DNA of 64,000 bases from Rickettsiales bacterium. Its GTDB lineage: Bacteria > Pseudomonadota > Alphaproteobacteria > Rickettsiales > SXRF01. Both the position numbers and the translations under genes were made by a program. The notes under the pieces are model-generated. The model searched no databases, had not been told where the DNA came from, and saw only the letters and a program-made list of their open reading frames with translations. Every line of letters begins with the position of its first letter. The stretch's first letter is position 1. The stretch covers positions 96,315 through 160,314 of the forward strand of contig JANRLL010000001.1 of assembly GCA_033762715.1 (NCBI GenBank). Direction: 5' to 3'. Below, piece by piece: positions 7,863 through 37,773 of this stretch.

Positions 7863-8313
7863 AATATGGTAGTTGGTCTATGAGGTGGTGGGTATAAAAC
7901 ACCACTTGTCTATCCGATGCAAAGCCTCTTTTTATGAATGTCAGTACGATGCATTTTGTAGCTACAAAATGGTTGTTAGTGATCGACATAAAAATATAGA
8001 ATGGCGTATAGTGAGGTAGAAATAGGGCGTACTGCTTACTATATTAGTAGATAAGAAAAGATGCTTTTATCGCTAGGCAATATTTGCCCAGATAGAGATG
8101 TTCGGTAATTTTTGATGCGCTCTTTGTACACAGTTTGAAAGCGATTGTCACATAAAGTAAAGGATTCATTAATTGGCGAGTATTGGCAATCAATAACTCT
8201 TATTATATATATAAAATTCAATATGTTAATAATATGCCCATTTTTTAGGCAAGTAGGATTGACACTAGGGTTAACCTGATTTAGATGAAAAATTGATGGG
8301 TATATCCTCAGAG

Positions 8314-18055: not shown

Positions 18056-18065
18056 ATATAAAAAT

Positions 18066-18462
18066 GCCAGATAGCCTATAAGCCGGGTTCTGTACTGCTT
18101 GCGCAGCGATGACCATTCATCTGGGATGCTAATTACTTAGCACCTCGTGCAATCTACCCGGATAGCATTGTGCAAAGCGACACCCTATCCCTATTTGATC
18201 TTGCTCCCGGCGGGGTTTTCCCTGCCAGTTCCGTTACCGGAACCGCGGTGCGCTCTTACCGCACCTTTTCACCCTTACCGCGCTGCTATAAATAGCGGCG
18301 AGGCGGTATATTCTCTGTGGCACTTTCCCTGAAGTTACCCTCGGCGGGCGTTACCCGCCACCGTGCTTTGTGGAGCCCGGACTTTCCTCAAGAGCATTCG
18401 ACGTTTGATGCTATTCGCAATCGCTCGCCCACATATCCCCTGCGGTCATCCAGCTATCTGGC
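18066..18462 (-). ncRNA. rnpB: RNase P RNA, bacterial type A
   Basis: The minus strand carries GAGGAAAGUCCGGGCUCC (complement of 18372-18389), GGUAAGGGUGAAAAGGUGCGGUAAGAGCGCACCG, AGAUGAAUG and ACAGAACCCGGCUUAU (complement of 18081-18094). P1 pairs the 5' GCCAGAUAGCU with the 3' AGGCUAUCUGGC. The ends are estimated from that pairing. Confidence 0.9.
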
Positions 18463-27388: not shown

Positions 27389-28129
27389 TTAAAGGCTGAA
27401 TTCATATTTAATATAGAGCTTCACCATCTGATCTTCCGCTGCATCAGAGAGGCCAAAAAGCCAGCCCGTTTCGTAACTTAGCCCATCGTAAGGCAGGTCG
27501 CCATACAAGGCGGGTCCGGCCAGATGCTTTTGCTCATCAAAGCTTCCGCTGTCGCTTATTTCACCAAAGGCGGCATAATATTCGATGCCAGGGTTTATCC
27601 ATTGATTATGGCGCACTCGGCTGGCCCAGCGGAACTCGGCTTCGGGATTGGCATTCGCATGCGTGCCGACCTCATGGTCGATAATGATATTGGCTAGGTG
27701 CAGAAAGTGCTCCGTGCGTTTGGCTAGCAGCCAGTTTACGCTGACACTATTGGCATCATATGGATATGGCGTATAGGCAGCGCCGTAACCGACCTTCATG
27801 CCGGTATCAAGCCAATATTCGCCGGTTTCGGTGAATTGAAAAACGGCTTCGATTTCGTTGCCACTAAAGGAATGGCCTTGTTGGGGCAGATGTTCCAGCT
27901 TGCCAGAAAGCTCCAGGCCAAACCAATCGTTGATGCCGTAGCTTAACTTGAGAATATGTTGGCGATAACCATTCTCGCTTGCGCGGCGATCGGAATCAAA
28001 GCGATTGCGGCTTTCGATTTCAAACAGATTTGCATCGACGTAAGGCGAGCTCACATTATGTGCAAAGCACAAGGAGGGAGCAGCAACGATGCTTGCGCAT
28101 AAGCAAAGTTGTTTATGCAATTTTTTCAC
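27389..28129 (-). CDS. Putative outer-membrane beta-barrel protein with a signal peptide
   Basis: 246 aa. Signal peptide ...SIVAAPSLCFA/HN, alternating hydrophobic and aromatic strands, C-terminal KLYIKYEFSL. The start overlaps the FTR1 gene end by 17 nt. Confidence 0.6.
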   Translation of the reverse strand: MKKLHKQLCLCASIVAAPSLCFAHNVSSPYVDANLFEIESRNRFDSDRRASENGYRQHILKLSYGINDWFGLELSGKLEHLPQQGHSFSGNEIEAVFQFTETGEYWLDTGMKVGYGAAYTPYPYDANSVSVNWLLAKRTEHFLHLANIIIDHEVGTHANANPEAEFRWASRVRHNQWINPGIEYYAAFGEISDSGSFDEQKHLAGPALYGDLPYDGLSYETGWLFGLSDAAEDQMVKLYIKYEFSL

Positions 28130-28922
28130 GTGTGAGTTTTAAGGAGGCAAGAATCAAGAACAAGGTGGCGACATAAAACACCAGCTGCATGGCAGACGGC
28201 TGCTCGGAATAACCAATCAATGCGTTAAGTATTTTCCCAATGATGCTGCTTTCGGCCAGAATATGGCTGGTGTCCCAGACTTGTGGTGCGATAGCAGGCA
28301 GCATGTCGGCTGCAATCAGATATCCGGCGGCTTGCGCGCTCATACCGCAAGCGACTAGAATCAGTAGCGCGCTGGTAACGCTGAAGAAATATTTAGCCGA
28401 TAATTTGATAATGCCCAAATAGAGTAATACGCCAAGCGCTGCCGCCGATACGGCACCTGCCAGCGCGCCGGCCGCAATGGCAAAGAATGATTCTTGGCTG
28501 GTGCTTAAAATGCCGGTCATGAAGAGCACGATTTCAGCTCCCTCGCGCCACATAGCCAGGCTTACGATGAGTGCTACCGAATAAAGCGGCAATTCGCCTT
28601 TGGCAACGGCATGCCCGACATGGTGAATACGTTGCGCGAGCTCTTTGCCGTGTTTGCGCATCCAGATGACAGTCCAGGCAATCATAGCAACTGCCACAAT
28701 CAACACTGCGGCATTGAACATTTCCTGGCCTACACCTTCGAAGGCTTCCGAAATCGAGCGGGCAAACAGTGCCACGATGGCAGAGCCAATCACGCCACCA
28801 GCAATACCACCCCATATCCATTGTGCGCGTCCAGGCACGCTACGCGTTGCGGCGATGACGACTGTCAGGATAATCGCGATCTCTAAGACTTCGCGAAAGA
28901 GGATGATAAAGCTGGCGAGCAT
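28113..28922 (-). CDS. FTR1-family iron permease (EfeU/FtrC-like)
   Basis: Two REXXE motifs (FREVLEIAI and WREGAEIVLF) and seven hydrophobic helices. Start placed at MLASFIILF (ATG 28922), 5 nt after the cupredoxin stop. Confidence 0.85.
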   Translation of the reverse strand: MLASFIILFREVLEIAIILTVVIAATRSVPGRAQWIWGGIAGGVIGSAIVALFARSISEAFEGVGQEMFNAAVLIVAVAMIAWTVIWMRKHGKELAQRIHHVGHAVAKGELPLYSVALIVSLAMWREGAEIVLFMTGILSTSQESFFAIAAGALAGAVSAAALGVLLYLGIIKLSAKYFFSVTSALLILVACGMSAQAAGYLIAADMLPAIAPQVWDTSHILAESSIIGKILNALIGYSEQPSAMQLVFYVATLFLILASLKLTREKIA

Positions 28923-28926
28923 AGGT

Positions 28927-29250
28927 TTACTTTGCGATGAGTTTACCTTGAGCGGTTTTGGCATTGAACTCGTCTTCAAATTTATATTCGCCTGGTTTGA
29001 GCGGGCCCACCAAAACGGTTGCGCTGCTATTGCCTTGAATCACTTTTTCGCGGCCCAGCGAGTGGCTTTCAAATTCGGCTGGGGTGCTGTCAGCGTTTTT
29101 AACCACCAGCTTTACTTTTTGATTGGCGGGCACTTCCAGCGTGGCCGGTTCAAATTGATGATCTTTCAAGGTCAACTCAAAAGAAGGGGTTTCTGCCCAA
29201 GCAGTGGTTGATAAAAGTGTGGCAGCGACAAAAGAGAGGGCTAATTTCAT
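28927..29250 (-). CDS. Periplasmic cupredoxin-like protein (FtrB / EfeO-N-terminal-like)
   Basis: 107 aa. Signal peptide MKLALSFVAATLLSTTAWA, then FELTLKDHQFEPATLEVPANQKVKLVVKNADSTPAEFES. Confidence 0.7.
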   Translation of the reverse strand: MKLALSFVAATLLSTTAWAETPSFELTLKDHQFEPATLEVPANQKVKLVVKNADSTPAEFESHSLGREKVIQGNSSATVLVGPLKPGEYKFEDEFNAKTAQGKLIAK

Positions 29251-34614: not shown

Positions 34615-34648
34615 TTTTCAGCGCTGCCACAAACCTGTCACATACGGC

Positions 34649-34692
34649 GTCACAGAAGCTTCATTTGTCTATCGCACCCATCGGTTTATGAT
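34649..34692 (+). promoter_or_regulatory. Putative promoter with shared box, copy 1
   Basis: Box GTCACAGAAGCTTCATTTGTCT (34649-34670). Its TTGTCT acts as the -35, then a 16-nt spacer, then TATGAT (34687-34692). GAGAGGA and ATG 34714 follow. Confidence 0.5.
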
Positions 34693-34713: not shown

Positions 34714-35187
34714 ATGAGAAAAGCACAGGCATATGGGATAGTACAAGCGCCGCTGGTTGAGCCGGTGGTGGCGTTGAGACTGCATGACGTGGCAAAGAAA
34801 GTCAGTGATACGAATACCGACATTGAACAAGCTAATGCCCTTGCCAAAGCCAGCCATCTCGAAGAAGCCGTGCCGCTGGTGACGGATAATCCCGAAAGCC
34901 CAATGGCCAACCTTTCCGATATTATGGCTAAAACCGAAGCTGGCAGCCGTGATGCGGCGGCTCTCGAAGCGAAGGTGATGCAAAAAACAATGCTGGAGCC
35001 GTTGGAAGATGGATCGGTCCTTACCATGCTCTCTTCGGCCCTGGCAGCGGTCGGTGGCATTTTCAAGGAACATGGCGTGTGTAGTGGCGGCTCAGTGCAT
35101 GAGCGCGATTTATGCCAACCGCTGGTCACATCCGGCCTATGGGCAGCTCGTTTGCCGCAAACCCAAGGAATGCAGGTCGTGGCATGA
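34714..35187 (+). CDS. Hypothetical acidic protein
   Basis: 157-aa ORF with SD GAGAGGA 8 nt upstream of the ATG, preceded by the shared promoter box. The antisense ORFs over the same DNA are Ser/Cys/Thr/His-rich and look like junk. Confidence 0.5.
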   Translation: MRKAQAYGIVQAPLVEPVVALRLHDVAKKVSDTNTDIEQANALAKASHLEEAVPLVTDNPESPMANLSDIMAKTEAGSRDAAALEAKVMQKTMLEPLEDGSVLTMLSSALAAVGGIFKEHGVCSGGSVHERDLCQPLVTSGLWAARLPQTQGMQVVA

Positions 35188-35247
35188 AAATTAAAACATT
35201 GATTTATAATATTATTTTTTATCTTAACGCAAAAGCAATGGTTTTTT

Positions 35248-35292
35248 GTCACAAAAGCTTAATTTGTGTTTCAAACCCGTGCATGGGATACT
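35248..35292 (+). promoter_or_regulatory. Putative promoter with shared box, copy 2
   Basis: Box GTCACAAAAGCTTAATTTGTGT (35248-35269). TTGTGT acts as the -35, then a 17-nt spacer, then GATACT (35287-35292). Confidence 0.5.
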
Positions 35293-35330
35293 AACACTAG
35301 AGACAAAGATTTTTTTTGAATGAGGACGTT

Positions 35331-35852
35331 ATGGGCGACAATGTAAAAGATCCCGCTTTGAAGAACTTCAGCCGCACTGGCGAGTATGTGAAACATACGT
35401 TCAAAAGCGCGCTGAATGGCGCGATCAAAGGCGCGTTGATTGTAGGCGCATTGGCCTTGATCCCTCTGGCCCTGGGCCCTGGTTTGATTGGCGGTGCGGT
35501 AGGTACGTTGCTCTCCTTCGTGGGCTTGAATACGGCAGGTGCGGCAACCGCTGGGTTTTTCTCGGCTAAAGTGCTGGGCGCCGCGTTTGGTGCTGCGATG
35601 TTTGGTGCAAAAGTTGGTGCTGTCGTAGGCGGTGCTACTGGCCTGATGGGCGCAGAAGATGCGGTGGATGAGGCGGAAGCACGTGCGGTGGACCGTACGC
35701 AACGTGCGCAGATGCGCTCGGTAAATAGCGAAATGATGGGTATGCGTGTGGCGCAAATGCGTGCTGCGGCCTTGGGCGGCGGTATGGTGGCTCCTGGCCA
35801 TGGTATTGGCGGCATGGGAATGGGCCAACAAGAGGGCATGGGGCTCGCATAA
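35331..35852 (+). CDS. Glycine-zipper integral membrane protein with a Met/Gly/Gln-rich C-terminal tail (paralog 1)
   Basis: First ATG at 35331, with GAGGA upstream; the track starts at TTG 35316. Zipper region GALIVGALALIPLALGPGLIGGAVGTLLSFVGLNTAGAATAGFFSAKVLGAAFGAAMFGAKVGAVVGGATGLMGA. Tail ...SEMMGMRVAQMRAAALGGGMVAPGHGIGGMGMGQQEGMGLA. Confidence 0.65.
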   Translation: MGDNVKDPALKNFSRTGEYVKHTFKSALNGAIKGALIVGALALIPLALGPGLIGGAVGTLLSFVGLNTAGAATAGFFSAKVLGAAFGAAMFGAKVGAVVGGATGLMGAEDAVDEAEARAVDRTQRAQMRSVNSEMMGMRVAQMRAAALGGGMVAPGHGIGGMGMGQQEGMGLA

Positions 35853-35881
35853 CCCTAGGATTTTGGCGATTGTCATAAAAG

Positions 35882-35925
35882 CTTCACTTGTTTGATTGAC
35901 GTAATCTGCCATAATGTGAGCATGT
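35882..35925 (+). promoter_or_regulatory. Putative promoter with shared box, copy 3
   Basis: Box GTCATAAAAGCTTCACTTGTTT (35882-35903). TTGTTT acts as the -35, then a 16-nt spacer, then CATAAT (35920-35925). Confidence 0.5.
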
Positions 35926-35963
35926 AGGGCCAAGCTATTGGCTAGATTGAAAAAAGGTGAGTT

Positions 35964-36539
35964 ATGGCAAAACCAATAGATCATGATTTCGACAGCAAGG
36001 TCGCAACGGCCGGCATTGAAGTCGCAAAAGGCAGTTTGTTGGGTATTGTTGGCGCTGGTTTGTTGACGGCAGCCACTTTGGTATTTGGCGTTGGTATGTT
36101 GGGCGCTGTGGCTAGCTTTGTGGGATTGGGTTCTTTTACCGGTGCTGCAGCGGCTATGATGACCGGCCCTGGCGCATTGATTACGCTTGCTAGCGGTATT
36201 GCAGGCGCATTTGGATTTGGTGGTGCGGGCGCATTGATCGGTGGCACTTACGGCCTGGCGAAAGCAGGCGGTAAAATTAATAGAGAAAGCCAAGCCTATC
36301 AGGATCGCGTGCAAGGTCAGATGGCATCGGTACAGAACACCGCGATGATGGCAATGCAGCAAGGCTATGAAATGGGCATGCAGGATGGCCAACAAAAAAT
36401 CGTAGCGGATCTTCAGCAAATGCATGCGCAAATGTTGCAAAAAGAAATGCTCGGCGCATCGGCTGAAAAAGGTAAATTCGCTAAAGGTATTGAACAGCAA
36501 CGTGAAGCCCATGCTGCGGCAGGGCCACAACTGGCATAG
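35964..36539 (+). CDS. Glycine-zipper integral membrane protein with a Met/Gln-rich helical tail (paralog 2)
   Basis: 191 aa with AAGGTGAG upstream of the ATG. Zipper region GSLLGIVGAGLLTAATLVFGVGMLGAVASFVGLGSFTGAAAAMMTGPGALITLASGIAGAFGFGGAGALIGGTYGL. Tail ...NTAMMAMQQGYEMGMQDGQQKIVADLQQMHAQMLQKEML. Confidence 0.65.
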   Translation: MAKPIDHDFDSKVATAGIEVAKGSLLGIVGAGLLTAATLVFGVGMLGAVASFVGLGSFTGAAAAMMTGPGALITLASGIAGAFGFGGAGALIGGTYGLAKAGGKINRESQAYQDRVQGQMASVQNTAMMAMQQGYEMGMQDGQQKIVADLQQMHAQMLQKEMLGASAEKGKFAKGIEQQREAHAAAGPQLA

Positions 36540-36557
36540 TTGAATAGTTGAGTAGAT

Positions 36558-37025
36558 ATGGCAAACATCGTCGGTAAAGTAACAGAAGCACTCTGCACAG
36601 GGGTCCACAAAACGGCGGGCCTGGTGGGCATTAATACGCGTTCTGGCGGTAGCCTGATTACCACCCCCGTCAATGGCGCGGTGATGGAAGATGCAATGTT
36701 TTATACCAAAAAGGCAATTGGCAGCGGCACCAAGAAGGTACTGGTTGCCGGTGCTGCCTTGGCGGCGGTTGCGGGTCTTGCTGTTTTGGCTAGCGGCTCG
36801 CGTAAAGCAAAAACTTATAAAGAACAAGATGTTGAAGTTGTGCCTCCTATGATGGCATTCAACAATGCCAGCGCTGAAATGGGCCCTGCTGATGGCCATG
36901 AAGCCGGCAAATGGCAACAAATGGTCATGGCGAGCCGTGGCATGGGTGGCCGTGCCGCAAACCCGCGTATGAGCGTCGTTCCTGACGAAGCGGTTGCCGA
37001 TCTTAACGCCCGCGGGCTGAGCTAA
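36558..37025 (+). CDS. Hypothetical single-pass membrane protein, probably co-transcribed with the preceding gene
   Basis: 155 aa, starting 18 nt after the upstream stop. TM helix VLVAGAALAAVAGLAVLA. Met-rich C-terminal half (VPPMMAF, GKWQQMVMASRGMGG). Confidence 0.55.
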   Translation: MANIVGKVTEALCTGVHKTAGLVGINTRSGGSLITTPVNGAVMEDAMFYTKKAIGSGTKKVLVAGAALAAVAGLAVLASGSRKAKTYKEQDVEVVPPMMAFNNASAEMGPADGHEAGKWQQMVMASRGMGGRAANPRMSVVPDEAVADLNARGLS

Positions 37026-37057
37026 ATTTTTTAGCCTATTTTTTGCTCGAAACTTCA

Positions 37058-37085
37058 TTGACAGCTCAGTTTTTATCGTTATATT
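37058..37085 (+). promoter_or_regulatory. Putative sigma70-type promoter of rpsD
   Basis: TTGACA (37058-37063), a 16-nt spacer, then TATATT (37080-37085), about 68 nt upstream of the rpsD start. Confidence 0.55.
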
Positions 37086-37152
37086 CGCAGTCCCTTTACT
37101 AATAACGTGACTTCCGCGCTGGTGCGGTAGTGCAACTAAATAGGAATGCGAC

Positions 37153-37773
37153 GTGACGAAACGTACTAATTGCAAATATAAGATCAGCCGCCGCCTGGGC
37201 GTGAGCCTTTGGGGCAATGCTAAAGATCCTTTCAACAAACGCGGCTATGCACCTGGTCAACATGGCGCAGCTGGTAAGCGCAAAAAAAGCTCCGACTACG
37301 GTACGCAGTTGCGTGAGAAACAAAAACTCAAAGGCTATTACGGCAATATCAACGAACGTCAATTCCGCCGTATTTATCAGGAAGCCGCACGCCGTAGAGG
37401 CGATACCGGCGAAAACCTGATCGCCATCTTAGAGAGCCGCCTAGACACCGTTATCTACCGCATGGGTGTGGTAGCTACTCCGTTTGCCGCTCGTCAATTC
37501 GTAAGCCACGGCCACGTAAAAGTGAACGGTCGTCGCGTGAACATCCCTAGCTTCCAAGTAAGCGAAGGCGATGTGATCGAATTGCGCGAAAAATCACGTC
37601 AGATCGCTAACGTTATCGAGTTGGTACAAAATCCAGACCGTAGCGTGCCTGACTATATCGAATTCGATAACGCTGAAATGAAAGCGAAGTTCGTACGTGC
37701 ACCGAAATTGGCAGAAGTGCCATATCCGGTGGTTATGGAGCCTAACTTCGTGATCGAGTTTTACTCGCGCTAG
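37153..37773 (+). CDS. rpsD: 30S ribosomal protein S4
   Basis: 206 aa: [14 protein letters not shown]...[16 protein letters not shown] start. Confidence 0.95.

What the first reader, a model, noticed from the sequence alone, without database searches (positions are those of the whole stretch)
35331..37025. Paralogous glycine-zipper membrane proteins with strongly Met-rich tails plus a single-TM partner: no family I can name
ORFs 35331-35852 and 35964-36539 share architecture and local sequence (KGALIVGA / KGSLLGIVGA; LLSFVGL / VASFVGL; VGGATGLMGA / IGGTYGLAKAGG). Each has a ~30-aa polar head and ~90 aa of Gly/Ala-rich GxxxG/AxxxG helices. Each then has a tail in which, by my count, Met makes up roughly 10-14% of residues (SEMMGMRVAQM...GHGIGGMGMGQQEGMG; NTAMMAMQQGYEMGMQDGQQ...QQMHAQMLQKEML). 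The next ORF (36558-37025, 18 nt downstream) has one Ala/Gly TM helix and is also Met-rich (VPPMMAF, QQMVMASRGMGG). Glycine-zipper proteins include pore-forming and contact-dependent toxins such as the Caulobacter CdzC/CdzD bacteriocins. Clustered Met/His motifs are typical of Cu(I)/Ag(I)-binding segments (CopA/PcoA/Ctr1-type Mets motifs). Both comparisons are analogies only. No type I secretion genes, immunity gene or copper pump lies adjacent. Combined with the shared promoter box, this is the best candidate in the window for an undescribed membrane system.
Basis: partly seen in the sequence, partly recalled or inferred. Interest (0 to 1): 0.75.

Follow-up and report, generated by a model that had tools for sequence, protein, structure and literature searches.

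The report
Unnamed membrane-protein trio with shared promoter
Three adjacent genes encode real, conserved membrane proteins matching no described family; they occur only in free-living relatives of Rickettsia and share a strikingly conserved promoter with dozens of other unknown membrane proteins of that lineage, but their function is unknown.

Summary
gz1 (35331-35852), gz2 (35964-36539) and tm3 (36558-37025) are genuine genes. The Gly/Ala-rich cores, Met-rich tails (10-14% vs 2.8% background) and shared upstream box are all present.

None matches Pfam, NCBIfam, PADLOC, PHROGs or PDB. The gz1-gz2-tm3 order, just upstream of rpsD, is conserved in at least 13 genomes of a basal environmental Rickettsiales lineage (Mitibacteraceae-like). 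It is absent from 64 other alphaproteobacterial rpsD loci. The gz2 family has 126 representatives among 1.84 billion proteins.

Met-richness is peculiar to this genome (family median 3.7%), so the copper-binding analogy fails. No type I secretion or immunity genes are nearby and the genes are core, so the Cdz-toxin analogy fails.

Conserved features are a GxxxGxxxG zipper, short head motifs and a Gln-rich long helix. gz1 and gz2 also carry opposite charge biases, which predicts an antiparallel pair of three-helix proteins in the cell's own inner membrane.

The box is a sigma-70-type promoter with a 17-bp invariant extension. It drives many lineage-specific proteins, mostly Pfam-less and rich in Gly-zipper hairpins (27/59 vs 13/337). 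Oddly, the same 20-mer precedes ars operons in other Alphaproteobacteria.

Function is unknown. The best guess is a regulated hetero-oligomeric, possibly channel-like, envelope module.

The parts
34647..34668 (+). Promoter box copy 1 (GCGTCACAGAAGCTTCATTTGT; 3 mismatches to the window consensus). Its 3' TTGTCT serves as the -35, with TATGAT as -10 after a 16-nt spacer (34687-34692).
34714..35187 (+). p157: an acidic 157-aa protein with one weak Gly/Ala hydrophobic helix. It is the first gene of the cassette. Positional equivalents are box-driven in relatives. No Pfam match.
35246..35267 (+). Promoter box copy 2 (TTGTCACAAAAGCTTAATTTGT). The -35 is TTGTGT (35264-35269), followed by a 17-nt spacer and a -10-like GATACT (35287-35292).
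35331..35852 (+). gz1: 173 aa. It has a K-rich head with the conserved HPALKNFS..KH motif and a ~76-aa Gly/Ala core of about 3 helices. The post-membrane flank is acidic, the tail is Arg/Gln/Met-rich, and the C-terminus carries a G-M-G-Q..G motif. Predicted topology is N-in/C-out.
35870..35891 (+). Promoter box copy 3 (TTGTCATAAAAGCTTCACTTGT). The -35 is TTGTTT (35888-35893), followed by a 16-nt spacer and a -10-like CATAAT (35910-35915).
35964..36539 (+). gz2: 191 aa. Its acidic head carries a conserved P-I-x-H-D..S..T..KG motif. The ~73-aa Gly/Ala core has about 3 helices and ends in G93-x3-G97-x3-(G)101. The post-membrane flank is K/R-rich. A long Gln-rich helix (about residues 105-185) carries the QQGYxxGxQxGQ motif, and the C-terminus reads R..A.AAG.QLA. 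Predicted topology is N-out/C-in.
36558..37025 (+). tm3: 155 aa with a single Ala/Gly TM helix (about residues 57-82) and basic residues on both flanks. The tail is Pro/Met/Gln-rich and carries the motif P.DG...G-(W/H)-x3-V-x3-R-G. It has no box of its own and starts 18 nt after gz2, so it is probably co-transcribed with gz2.
37014..37047 (+). Terminator-like hairpin (8-bp stem) plus a T-run that overlaps the tm3 stop codon. It closes the gz2-tm3 unit. rpsD then has its own near-consensus promoter at 37058-37085.

Best explanation
A lineage-specific envelope module of basal, environmental Rickettsiales. The proposed mechanism is:

1. gz1 and gz2 are diverged paralogs, each with about three Gly/Ala-rich transmembrane helices. 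They insert into the producer's own cytoplasmic membrane in opposite orientations: gz1 N-in/C-out and gz2 N-out/C-in.
2. They pack through GxxxG/GxxxGxxxG faces into an antiparallel hetero-oligomer, possibly channel-like. The single-pass tm3 acts as an accessory subunit, and the acidic p157 is a co-expressed partner.
3. The Gln-rich ~80-residue helix of gz2 would lie in the cytoplasm and oligomerise as a coiled coil. The Arg/Gln/Met-rich tail of gz1 would lie in the periplasm.
4. Expression is set by three copies of a lineage-wide promoter. This is a sigma-70-type -35/-10 pair plus an invariant 17-bp element at about -37 to -54. The extension is presumably read by a dedicated transcription factor, perhaps one that reads 11-bp-phased half-sites (GTCAY...TTCAY).
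5. The same promoter switches on many other Gly-zipper hairpin proteins.

Shown here:
- The genes, the families and the synteny.
- The promoter and its association with hairpin proteins.
- The conserved motifs and the charge biases.

Inferred only:
- Topology and hetero-oligomerisation.
- Channel-like activity.
- The identity of the regulator and its signal.
For: Real, conserved genes:
- The HMMs recover gz1, gz2 and tm3 in the same order and orientation in at least 13 distinct genomes (E down to 1e-66).
- Three independently annotated metagenome contigs show the same genes.
- gz2-tm3-rpsD synteny extends to RS372, UBA998 and UBA1002.
- The cassette is absent from 64 other alphaproteobacterial rpsD loci.
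- Divergence of 29-43% identity is like that of the neighbouring RluD (32-40%). These are therefore ordinary core genes, not hypervariable ones.

Own-membrane insertion and antiparallel pairing:
- gz2 has more K+R on its C-flank than its N-flank in 78 of 82 members.
- gz1 has lower net charge on its C-flank than its N-flank in 20 of 22 members, with none the other way.
- The two families differ with Mann-Whitney P=4e-12, and about 3 helices is the commonest count in both.
- The genes are adjacent and homologous.
- From my own knowledge: adjacent paralogs with opposite K+R bias are the hallmark of antiparallel heterodimers (Rapp et al. 2006, NSMB).

Zipper and helix:
- G93/G97/G101 are 89-95% conserved in the last gz2 helix.
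- From my own knowledge: glycine zippers are over-represented in channel-forming helix bundles (Kim et al. 2005, PNAS).
- AF2 with 82 sequences predicts one long helix over residues 87-185, with pLDDT 75-94.

Co-regulation:
- The box lies in front of p157, gz1 and gz2 in the window and in relatives.
- 60 copies were found in the lineage loci, each followed about 17 nt later by a -10-like hexamer.
- A terminator-like hairpin follows tm3.
Against: - There is no functional or structural homolog, so channel-like activity is pure inference.
- The AF2 membrane core is low-confidence (pLDDT below 50 for residues 35-70).
- The third hydrophobic segment of gz1 is weak and contains Lys in several orthologs. 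gz1 could therefore have 2 helices, with both ends inside.
- tm3 has basic residues on both flanks, so its orientation is ambiguous.
- gz2 and tm3 share a C-terminal motif, yet they would be predicted on opposite sides of the membrane.
- The wider box regulon looks effector-like. Its proteins are almost entirely Pfam-less, rich in hairpins and low-complexity sequence, and the lineage is reported to have a type IV secretion system (PMC9352585).
- Gly/Ala composition inflates similarity scores between gz1 and gz2.
Confidence: 0.45

Rival explanations
1. Translocated membrane-inserting effectors. On this reading the box marks the effector regulon of the lineage's rvh type IV secretion system. gz1, gz2, tm3 and the other hairpin proteins would be delivered into target cells (bacteria or protists) and insert into their membranes, as chlamydial Inc proteins or hairpin-bearing Dot/Icm effectors do.
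For: - Box-driven genes are strongly enriched for Gly-rich hydrophobic hairpins (27/59 vs 13/337, P=4e-16).
- They almost never carry a Pfam domain.
- Many have a hydrophilic N-domain, a 40-50-aa bilobed hydrophobic domain and a hydrophilic tail, with no signal peptide.
- One shared promoter for many ORFan genes recalls the PmrA, hrp and tts effector boxes (my own knowledge).
- A TrbC/VirB2 pilin gene lies divergently next to a box gene in L100.
- gz2 has an IncA-like layout: short head, hydrophobic domain, long Gln-rich helix.
Against: - gz1, gz2 and tm3 are single-copy, syntenic core genes next to rpsD across the clade.
- Their flanks follow a strong and opposite positive-inside pattern, which is expected for Sec/YidC insertion in the producer.
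- The C-termini show no clear positively charged type IV secretion signal (by reading).
- No secretion genes lie in this 64-kb window.
- The lineage is predicted to be free-living.
Confidence: 0.2
2. A pore-forming glycine-zipper toxin pair with an immunity protein (Cdz-like or Tse4/Ssp6-like). gz1 and gz2 would be a two-peptide bacteriocin, and tm3 would be the immunity protein.
For: - The cores are Gly-zipper-rich, the proteins are small and the three genes are adjacent.
- Weak sub-threshold resemblances to other Gly-zipper families appear in single members: C19orf12, Romo1 and the RTX N-terminal domain.
Against: - No type I or type VI secretion genes and no exporter lie nearby.
- The synteny is conserved and single-copy, unlike the patchy, polymorphic distribution typical of toxin/immunity loci.
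- There are no leader peptides.
- The long conserved cytoplasmic-type tail and the positive-inside pattern argue for a resident membrane protein.
Confidence: 0.05
3. Metal (Cu(I)/Ag(I)) handling. The Met- and His-rich tails would bind soft metals in the envelope.
For: - The window tails are 10-14% Met.
- A few gz2 orthologs carry His-rich inserts such as EHGHAHDHAHPHTHAE (L130, P0092, P0095).
- The gz1 tail is predicted to be periplasmic.
- The box sequence is shared with promoters of metalloid (ars) operons in other Alphaproteobacteria.
Against: - Met-richness is not conserved. The gz2 family median is 3.7%, 29 of 82 members are at or below 3%, and the L001 gz2 tail has 0% Met. Window Met positions are Ala or Gln elsewhere.
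- No fixed MxxM/HxxM pattern was evident in the alignments, though I did not tabulate motif counts.
- No copper genes are adjacent.
- In ars promoters the experimentally tested ArsR operator is a different palindrome (PMC9137774).
Confidence: 0.05

Closest known systems
Antiparallel paralog pairs derived from dual-topology membrane proteins (SMR pairs EbrAB and MdtIJ/YdgEF; paired CrcB/Fluc)
   Same: The genes are adjacent, homologous and encode small multi-helix membrane proteins. Their K+R biases are opposite and consistent across the family.
   Different: There is no sequence relationship to SMR or CrcB. The proteins have about 3 helices rather than 4. They carry long, unlike soluble tails and conserved heads. 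A third single-pass gene and a fourth acidic gene belong to the unit. Opposite orientation is predicted here, not measured.
Glycine-zipper membrane proteins (Pfam Gly-zipper_Omp/YMGG/OmpA, Rick_17kDa_Anti/SlyB-Pcp, transglycosylase-associated YeaQ/YmgE, C19orf12, Romo1)
   Same: They share GxxxGxxxG-type helices and Gly/Ala-rich hydrophobic hairpins. Isolated sub-threshold hits to such families occur in single members.
   Different: No member reaches any family threshold. There is no lipoprotein signal. The conserved head motifs and the long Gln-rich helix are specific to these families.
Chlamydial Inc proteins (e.g. IncA) and hairpin-bearing type IV secretion effectors
   Same: The layout is a short hydrophilic head, a hydrophobic domain and a long coiled-coil-like tail. 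The repertoire is large, Pfam-less and lineage-specific. The genes are co-regulated.
   Different: The gz1 and gz2 cores are about 73 aa with about 3 helices, not a 40-60-aa bilobed hairpin. A positive-inside pattern is present. No type III secretion system is known for this lineage and there is no IncA homology. Translocation has not been tested.
Caulobacter CdzC/CdzD contact-dependent bacteriocins
   Same: Both are small Gly-zipper-rich proteins encoded side by side.
   Different: There is no cdzAB-type type I exporter or immunity gene nearby. The genes are core and syntenic rather than strain-variable.
Promoter-defined virulence/effector regulons (Legionella/Coxiella PmrA box, hrp box, tts box)
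   Same: A long, nearly invariant element abuts or replaces the -35 and sits in front of many otherwise unrelated lineage-specific genes. It contains 11-bp-phased half-sites compatible with an OmpR-family regulator.
   Different: The sequence is different and the regulator is unknown. The same 20-mer also precedes ars operons in Rhodobacterales and Rhizobiales.

Membership tests
Pfam glycine-zipper families (PF13488, PF13441, PF13436, PF05433) and transglycosylase-associated PF04226 | Match to the family HMM at or above the gathering score | tested here: not met
   The three window proteins gave 0 families at E<=1. None of 82 gz2-family members reached any such family; only single sub-threshold hits occurred.
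Pfam glycine-zipper families (SlyB/Pcp/17-kDa antigen type) | Lipoprotein signal peptide with a lipobox Cys | tested here: not met
   The gz1 and gz2 N-termini are polar, conserved heads without a hydrophobic leader. By reading the sequences, neither protein contains any Cys.
Glycine-zipper structural motif (not a homology family) | Conserved GxxxGxxxG in a TM helix | tested here: met
   G93, G97 and G101 are 95%, 95% and 89% conserved in the gz2 family. G92/G96 are conserved in gz1.
CdzC/CdzD-type bacteriocin system | Linked type I secretion exporter (cdzAB) and immunity gene | tested here: not met
   The flanking genes are purL, FTR1, a TPP enzyme, rluD, rpsD, mraZ and the dcw cluster. The same is true on metagenome contigs.
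CdzC/CdzD-type bacteriocin system | Sequence homology to CdzC/CdzD | not testable with these tools
   No Cdz profile or sequence was available. All database relatives found are unnamed or annotated only as 'hypothetical protein'.
Mets-motif Cu(I)/Ag(I)-binding segments (CopA/PcoA/Ctr1 type) | Met (or His) clusters conserved across orthologs | tested here: not met
   The gz2-family tail Met median is 3.7% (range 0-9.2%, with the window as the maximum). Window Met columns are Ala, Gln or Met elsewhere. gz1 tails range from 1.8% to 14% Met.
Mets-motif Cu(I)/Ag(I)-binding segments | Genomic linkage to copper homeostasis genes | tested here: not met
   None lies within the window flanks.
Chlamydial Inc proteins | Bilobed hydrophobic domain of about 40-60 aa (two TM helices with a short loop) | tested here: inconclusive
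   The gz1 and gz2 cores are about 72-73 aa with about 3 helices. Other box-driven proteins, such as those in L119, L098 and L092, do have a hairpin of roughly 40-50 aa.
Chlamydial Inc proteins | Homology to an Inc family (e.g. IncA) and type III secretion | tested here: not met
   There is no Pfam hit. Secretion itself cannot be tested here.
Antiparallel (dual-topology-derived) paralog pairs | Adjacent homologous genes | tested here: met
   BLASTP gives E=1e-4 with 32% identity over 133 aa. gz1 orthologs hit the gz2 HMM at 1e-4 to 1e-9. hhalign gives 95.9% probability, though over only 27 columns.
Antiparallel (dual-topology-derived) paralog pairs | Opposite K+R bias of the two partners | tested here: met
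   In gz2, KR(C)>KR(N) in 78/82 members. In gz1, net charge C<N in 20/22 members. Mann-Whitney P=4e-12.
Antiparallel (dual-topology-derived) paralog pairs | Experimentally opposite membrane orientation and heterodimer formation | not testable with these tools
   This needs reporter fusions or cross-linking. No multimer prediction was available.
Type IV secretion effector regulon (PmrA-box-like) | Common promoter element in front of many lineage-specific genes | tested here: met
   60 box copies were found in lineage loci, each followed by a -10 about 17 nt downstream. More came from two collection scans.
Type IV secretion effector regulon (PmrA-box-like) | Secretion-system-dependent translocation or a recognisable C-terminal signal | not testable with these tools
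   No clear basic C-terminal signal is seen by reading the sequences. Type IV secretion in the lineage is known only from the literature (PMC9352585) and from one VirB2 gene in L100.

The most novel reading that the evidence does not exclude
[quoted passage not shown] That cargo would be a large repertoire of Inc-like, glycine-zipper hairpin proteins, including gz1, gz2 and tm3, that are injected into and inserted in the membranes of target cells. This would make the origin of rickettsial host manipulation directly testable. A second, compatible novelty is that gz1 and gz2 form a previously unseen 3+3-helix antiparallel glycine-zipper channel.
Probability: 0.2. Interest if true: 0.9.

Novelty: new variant of a known kind. 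Interest (0 to 1): 0.68.

Why it matters
Basal environmental Rickettsiales (Mitibacteraceae and relatives) are the reference point for how obligate intracellular pathogens arose. Their lineage-specific biology is essentially unannotated.

This work shows that a set of 'hypothetical' genes next to rpsD forms three or four coherent protein families. One has 126 diverged representatives.

A single, nearly invariant promoter element ties these genes to dozens of other ORFan membrane-hairpin proteins. That element can be searched for, so it offers a way to define a whole regulon in uncultured genomes.

If the regulon is an envelope-remodelling programme, it is a new one. If it is the type IV secretion effector set, it bears on an open question raised in PMC9352585 and PMC11077975. 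The predicted antiparallel gz1/gz2 pair is also a clean, testable case of topology evolution.

Tried and rejected
- Curated libraries (Pfam, NCBIfam, PADLOC, PHROGs) returned nothing.
- A PDB sequence profile search gave only E=0.05-0.1 noise, and Foldseek against PDB gave 0 hits.
- A single-sequence search of 5.8 billion protein clusters, and a genome scan with gz2 alone, found only the query itself. Progress came only from anchoring on rpsD synteny.
- I read the box against the sigma-54, CtrA, LexA, EcfG and RpoH consensus sequences, recalled from memory. The spacings or the sequences do not fit.
- I tested the box as a Pho box. The first half-site fits, but no pst or pho gene follows any of the roughly 125 box hits. 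The phoX upstream region in L100 carries a different heptad repeat. Rejected.
- I tested the box as an ArsR operator. It precedes arsR and ars genes in at least 18 other alphaproteobacterial loci. However, the operator tested experimentally in Paracoccus is the ATCAA-N6-TTGAT palindrome near the ATG (PMC9137774). Such palindromes are visible downstream of the 20-mer in my hits. No ArsR homolog was found in the lineage fragments I fetched. This remains unexplained.
- A literature search for the motif string returned 0 papers.
- The first AF2 run, with 11 sequences, was uninformative (pLDDT 49).
- The exact-sequence contig look-up for gz2 found nothing on record.
- The gz2 and gz1 profile searches of the word-indexed database were capped at 8000 candidates because of low-complexity words, so the counts of 11 and 15 hits are lower bounds.
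Full report
**1. Checking the observation**

- gz1 is best read from ATG 35331, which has GAGGA 6 nt upstream, rather than from the TTG at 35316.
- gz2 is 35964-36539 and has an AAGGTGA ribosome-binding site.
- tm3 is 36558-37025 and starts 18 nt after the gz2 stop.
- Every quoted peptide is present.

I compared composition against 14,606 residues of other proteins in the window (Met 2.8%, Gly 7.7%, Ala 10.9%).
- gz1 and gz2 are 17-19% Gly and 18-19% Ala.
- The three tails are 14.3%, 10.5% and 10.0% Met, with binomial P from 6e-5 to 3e-3.

gz1 and gz2 align at 32% identity over 133 residues (E=1e-4, composition-adjusted). At profile level only the last helix and its junction align: 27 columns, 95.9% probability. 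gz1 orthologs nevertheless score 1e-4 to 1e-9 against the gz2 HMM. Paralogy is therefore likely, but composition inflates the scores. tm3 is unrelated in sequence.

The 'promoter box' is real. The 22-mer occurs three times in 64 kb, with none expected by chance. The copies precede gz1, gz2 and also the upstream gene 34714-35187 (p157).

A 655-aa antisense ORF spans the region. Only the sense frames give full-length cross-genome alignments. The short, 90%-identical antisense hits most likely come from its overlap with the conserved 5' end of rpsD; I did not confirm this from hit coordinates.

**2. Identifying the genes**

None of the proteins, nor p157, nor the 373/395-aa protein upstream, matches Pfam, NCBIfam, PADLOC or PHROGs. 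gz2 alone finds only itself among 5.8 billion protein clusters.

Anchoring on the flanking S4 gene gave the breakthrough. The five closest genomes (S4 about 80% identical) are all uncultured Alphaproteobacteria or 'Rickettsiales'. All five carry the same cassette between rluD and rpsD: an acidic protein, a gz1-like gene, a gz2-like gene and one or two single-TM proteins.

Further evidence for the cassette:
- HMMs built from these genes recover the gz1-gz2-tm3 triad, in the same order and orientation, in at least 13 distinct genomes.
- Independent gene calls on three public metagenome contigs show the same four Pfam-less genes.
- More distant relatives keep [small hairpin protein]-gz2-tm3-rpsD. 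These are RS372, UBA998, UBA1002, L007, L012 and L016, with S4 identity of roughly 66-71% where measured.
- The other 64 alphaproteobacterial rpsD loci have nothing of the kind.

An exhaustive HMMER profile search of 1.84 billion representatives found 126 gz2-family proteins. 66 of them are at E<=1e-10, and almost all are full-length at 160-260 aa. None of the 82 members I scanned reaches any Pfam family. The PDB sequence search and Foldseek are both empty. The gz1 family is likewise unnamed.

Sequence identity among orthologs is 29-43%, similar to that of the neighbouring RluD at 32-40%. These are core genes evolving at an ordinary rate.

**3. Placing the organism**

The window encodes purine synthesis, polyphosphate kinase, phasin, a chemoreceptor and the dcw cluster. 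This is a metabolically capable, motile alphaproteobacterium.

One box-bearing MAG, 'Rickettsiales bacterium RS372', lies inside the Mitibacteraceae clade in the trees of Schön et al. 2022. UBA998 groups with UBA6149 of that clade (PMC9352585 supplements).

That paper and PMC11077975 describe these basal Rickettsiales as follows:
- probably free-living;
- flagellated;
- larger in genome and higher in GC than the classical, host-dependent Rickettsiales;

**4. What is conserved in the proteins and what is not**

Across 82 gz2-family members, the tail Met median is 3.7%. The window protein, at 9.2%, is the maximum. Its Met positions are Ala, Gln or Met elsewhere. gz1 tails range from 1.8% to 14% Met. 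Met-richness is therefore a local compositional drift, not a family property.

The conserved gz2 features are:
- an N-terminal P-(I/V)-x-H motif (His 88%), then Ser, Thr and Lys-Gly;
- G93-x3-G97-x3-G101 in the last helix (89-95%);
- Glu108;
- a Gln-rich tail (median 15% Gln) carrying QQGYxxGxQxGQ;
- a C-terminal R...A.AAG.Q(L/V)(G/A).

gz1 conserves HPALKNFS...KHVxGKxLK, a Gly-zipper last helix and a C-terminal (V/A)SPN..LP..GMGQ..G. AF2 with the 82-sequence alignment gives pLDDT 68.7. It predicts a long helix over residues 87-185 (pLDDT 75-94), but the membrane core is poorly defined.

**5. Membrane topology**

The flanks of the hydrophobic cores carry opposite, family-wide charge biases.
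- gz2 has an acidic head and a K/R-rich post-core flank. K+R is higher on the C-flank in 78 of 82 members.
- gz1 has a K/R-rich head and an acidic post-core flank. Net charge is lower on the C-flank in 20 of 22 members, with none the other way.
- The two families differ with P=4e-12.
- About three helices is the commonest count in both, with a median core of 72-73 aa.

By the positive-inside rule (established knowledge) this predicts gz1 as N-in/C-out and gz2 as N-out/C-in. That is an antiparallel pair of adjacent paralogs, the signature known from SMR and Fluc pairs (my own knowledge: Rapp et al. 2006).

It also argues that the producer's own Sec/YidC machinery inserts these proteins. tm3 is ambiguous, because both of its flanks are basic.

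**6. The promoter and its regulon**

The box (TGTCAyAAAAgCTTmAyTTG) is conserved in front of the acidic gene, gz1 and gz2 in all relatives. Two exact scans of 185,579 genomes returned 50 and 77 loci. I estimate about 9 and about 17 chance hits for 596 Gb. Roughly 34-36 hits per scan are 'Rickettsiales' or 'Alphaproteobacteria' MAGs of this lineage.

In 60 lineage copies, a TAnAAT-like hexamer follows the 3' TTG of the box after about 17 nt, and a start codon lies 30-90 nt further on. The element is therefore a sigma-70-type promoter with an invariant 17-bp extension at about -37 to -54. The extension contains 11-bp-phased GTCAY/TTCAY half-sites. Several loci hold 2-3 copies within 8 kb, and one MAG (REEB114) has at least 6 exact copies.

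The genes downstream of the box are:
- gz1, gz2 and the acidic family;
- many other proteins with no signal peptide, a hydrophilic N-domain, a Gly-rich hydrophobic hairpin and a hydrophilic tail;
- some soluble proteins of unknown function.

A Gly-rich hydrophobic domain occurs in 27 of 59 box-driven genes against 13 of 337 other genes (odds ratio 21, P=4e-16). Eight of those 13 are gz2 orthologs whose box fell below the matching threshold. Of about 19 box-driven proteins scanned, only one, a deaminase, has a Pfam domain above threshold.

**7. An unexplained link to ars operons**

Outside the lineage, the same 20-mer lies 30-55 nt upstream of arsR, arsR-arsC fusions or ars-type gapdh genes in at least 18 loci of Rhodobacterales and Rhizobiales. 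The flanking sequences there are not conserved.

In Paracoccus the experimentally tested ArsR operator is a different palindrome next to the ATG (PMC9137774). Similar palindromes are visible downstream of the 20-mer in my hits. The factor that reads the 20-mer is therefore unknown.

A Pho-box reading is not supported, because no pst or pho gene follows any box. I also read the box against the sigma-54, CtrA, LexA, EcfG and RpoH consensus sequences as I recall them; none fits in spacing or sequence.

**8. Most likely mechanism**

My best reading (about 0.45) is a resident inner-membrane module.
- gz1 and gz2 form an antiparallel pair of three-helix proteins, packed through glycine zippers. The assembly may be channel-like, since such zippers typify channel bundles (my own knowledge: Kim et al. 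2005).
- tm3 would be a co-transcribed accessory subunit, and p157 a co-expressed partner.
- The Gln-rich coiled coil of gz2 would lie in the cytoplasm, and the gz1 tail in the periplasm.
- The module would be switched on together with a larger set of hairpin proteins by whatever factor reads the box.

The main rival (about 0.2) is that the box marks translocated, Inc-like effectors of the rvh system. The ORFan, hairpin-rich, single-promoter character of the regulon favours it. A VirB2 gene beside a box gene in L100 is also consistent. Against it stand the core synteny and the positive-inside pattern of gz1 and gz2.

The Cdz-like toxin reading and the metal-binding reading (about 0.05 each) fail the tests given in the Rival explanations and Membership tests section.

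**9. Novelty and verdict**

The proteins use a known structural idiom: glycine-zipper helices, and probably an antiparallel paralog pair. They nevertheless form undescribed families with no detectable relatives. The promoter-defined regulon in basal Rickettsiales appears not to have been reported; a search for the motif string found no paper.

I rate this a new variant of a known kind, with substantial interest (0.68).

Noticed in passing
L086-L088, L091, L114, L131, L151, L163, L166, L170, L172, L179-L181, L183, L184, L186, L189, L193, L197 (box positions listed): The same 20-mer (TGTCAYAAAA[ACG]CTTMAYTTG) sits 30-55 nt upstream of arsR, arsR-arsC fusions or ars-type gapdh genes in Rhodobacterales and Rhizobiales. 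The flanks are not conserved. It is distinct from the ATCAA-N6-TTGAT ArsR operator tested in Paracoccus. What reads it is unknown.
   Followed up: partly
L161 108-, L168 3381+, L195 1575-, L200 705- (all from MAG SRP290908_co2_187): Four box promoters in one MAG have a (CT)n microsatellite of varying length that fills the -35/-10 spacer (e.g. CCTCTCTCTCTCTCTCTCTCTAATAT). This is the classic arrangement for phase-variable promoter strength.
   Followed up: no
window 33427/33493-34614 (+): A 373/395-aa protein with an N-terminal Ala/Gly membrane anchor and a Thr/Pro-rich linker. It has no Pfam match and no box. It is absent from the equivalent position in L001-L005 and from the metagenome contigs, so it is a genome-specific insertion between rluD and the cassette.
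   Followed up: partly
window gz2 residues ~168-191 and tm3 residues ~117-135; likewise L003 and L005: The gz2 and tm3 tails share a short helical motif, (G)-x-[H/W/F]-x3-[V/I]-x3-R, sometimes followed by AAG.Q(L/V)G. The aromatic or His residue seems to co-vary within a genome. This may be a common docking peptide, yet the topology prediction puts the two tails on opposite sides of the membrane.
   Followed up: partly
L130 1462-2202 (-); P0092, P0095: A few gz2 orthologs carry His-rich inserts in the tail, such as EHGHAHDHAHPHTHAE. The rest of the family lacks them.
   Followed up: partly
L100 981-1358 (-), 1724-2611 (+), 3203-6073 (+): A TrbC/VirB2 pilin gene lies divergently next to a box-driven Gly-zipper gene. 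An OmpR-family response regulator with a ~57-aa N-terminal extension and a PhoX gene follow. The phoX upstream region carries tandem TGTCAGC heptads. A degenerate second box-like sequence is at about 1466-1490.
   Followed up: partly
L003 6595-7164 and 7191-7808; L005 6209-6604: L003 has a tandem duplication of tm3. The L005 gz1 gene ends right after the membrane core (131 aa), which may reflect a frameshift or a tail-less variant.
   Followed up: no
window 35271-37238 (-): A 655-aa antisense 'shadow' ORF covers all three genes. It is a by-product of Gly/Ala-rich coding and is not conserved as protein.
   Followed up: yes
L116 7401-8000 (+): One box-driven gene encodes a cytidine/deoxycytidylate-type deaminase (also above threshold for the MafB19-like toxin deaminase model). 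It has a ~60-aa N-terminal extension. It is the only box-driven protein found with a Pfam domain above threshold.
   Followed up: partly
window 18063-18461 (-); 27389-28979 (-); 37058-37085 (+): Three other features of the window: a bacterial RNase P RNA (317 bits); an FTR1-family iron permease with a Pfam-less 246-aa neighbour about 6 kb upstream of the cassette; and a near-consensus sigma-70 promoter (TTGACA-16-TATATT) for rpsD.
   Followed up: no
L098 1047-3427, L119 587-3535, L092 94-2178: Large box-driven proteins (694 to over 980 aa) share a central Gly-zipper hairpin. A similar post-hairpin domain follows it (...NSPF..E.L...P.D.K.QVR.PEG.TP...). L098 ends in (PAAPAAPVV)n repeats. They appear to form a further unnamed family in the regulon.
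   Followed up: no
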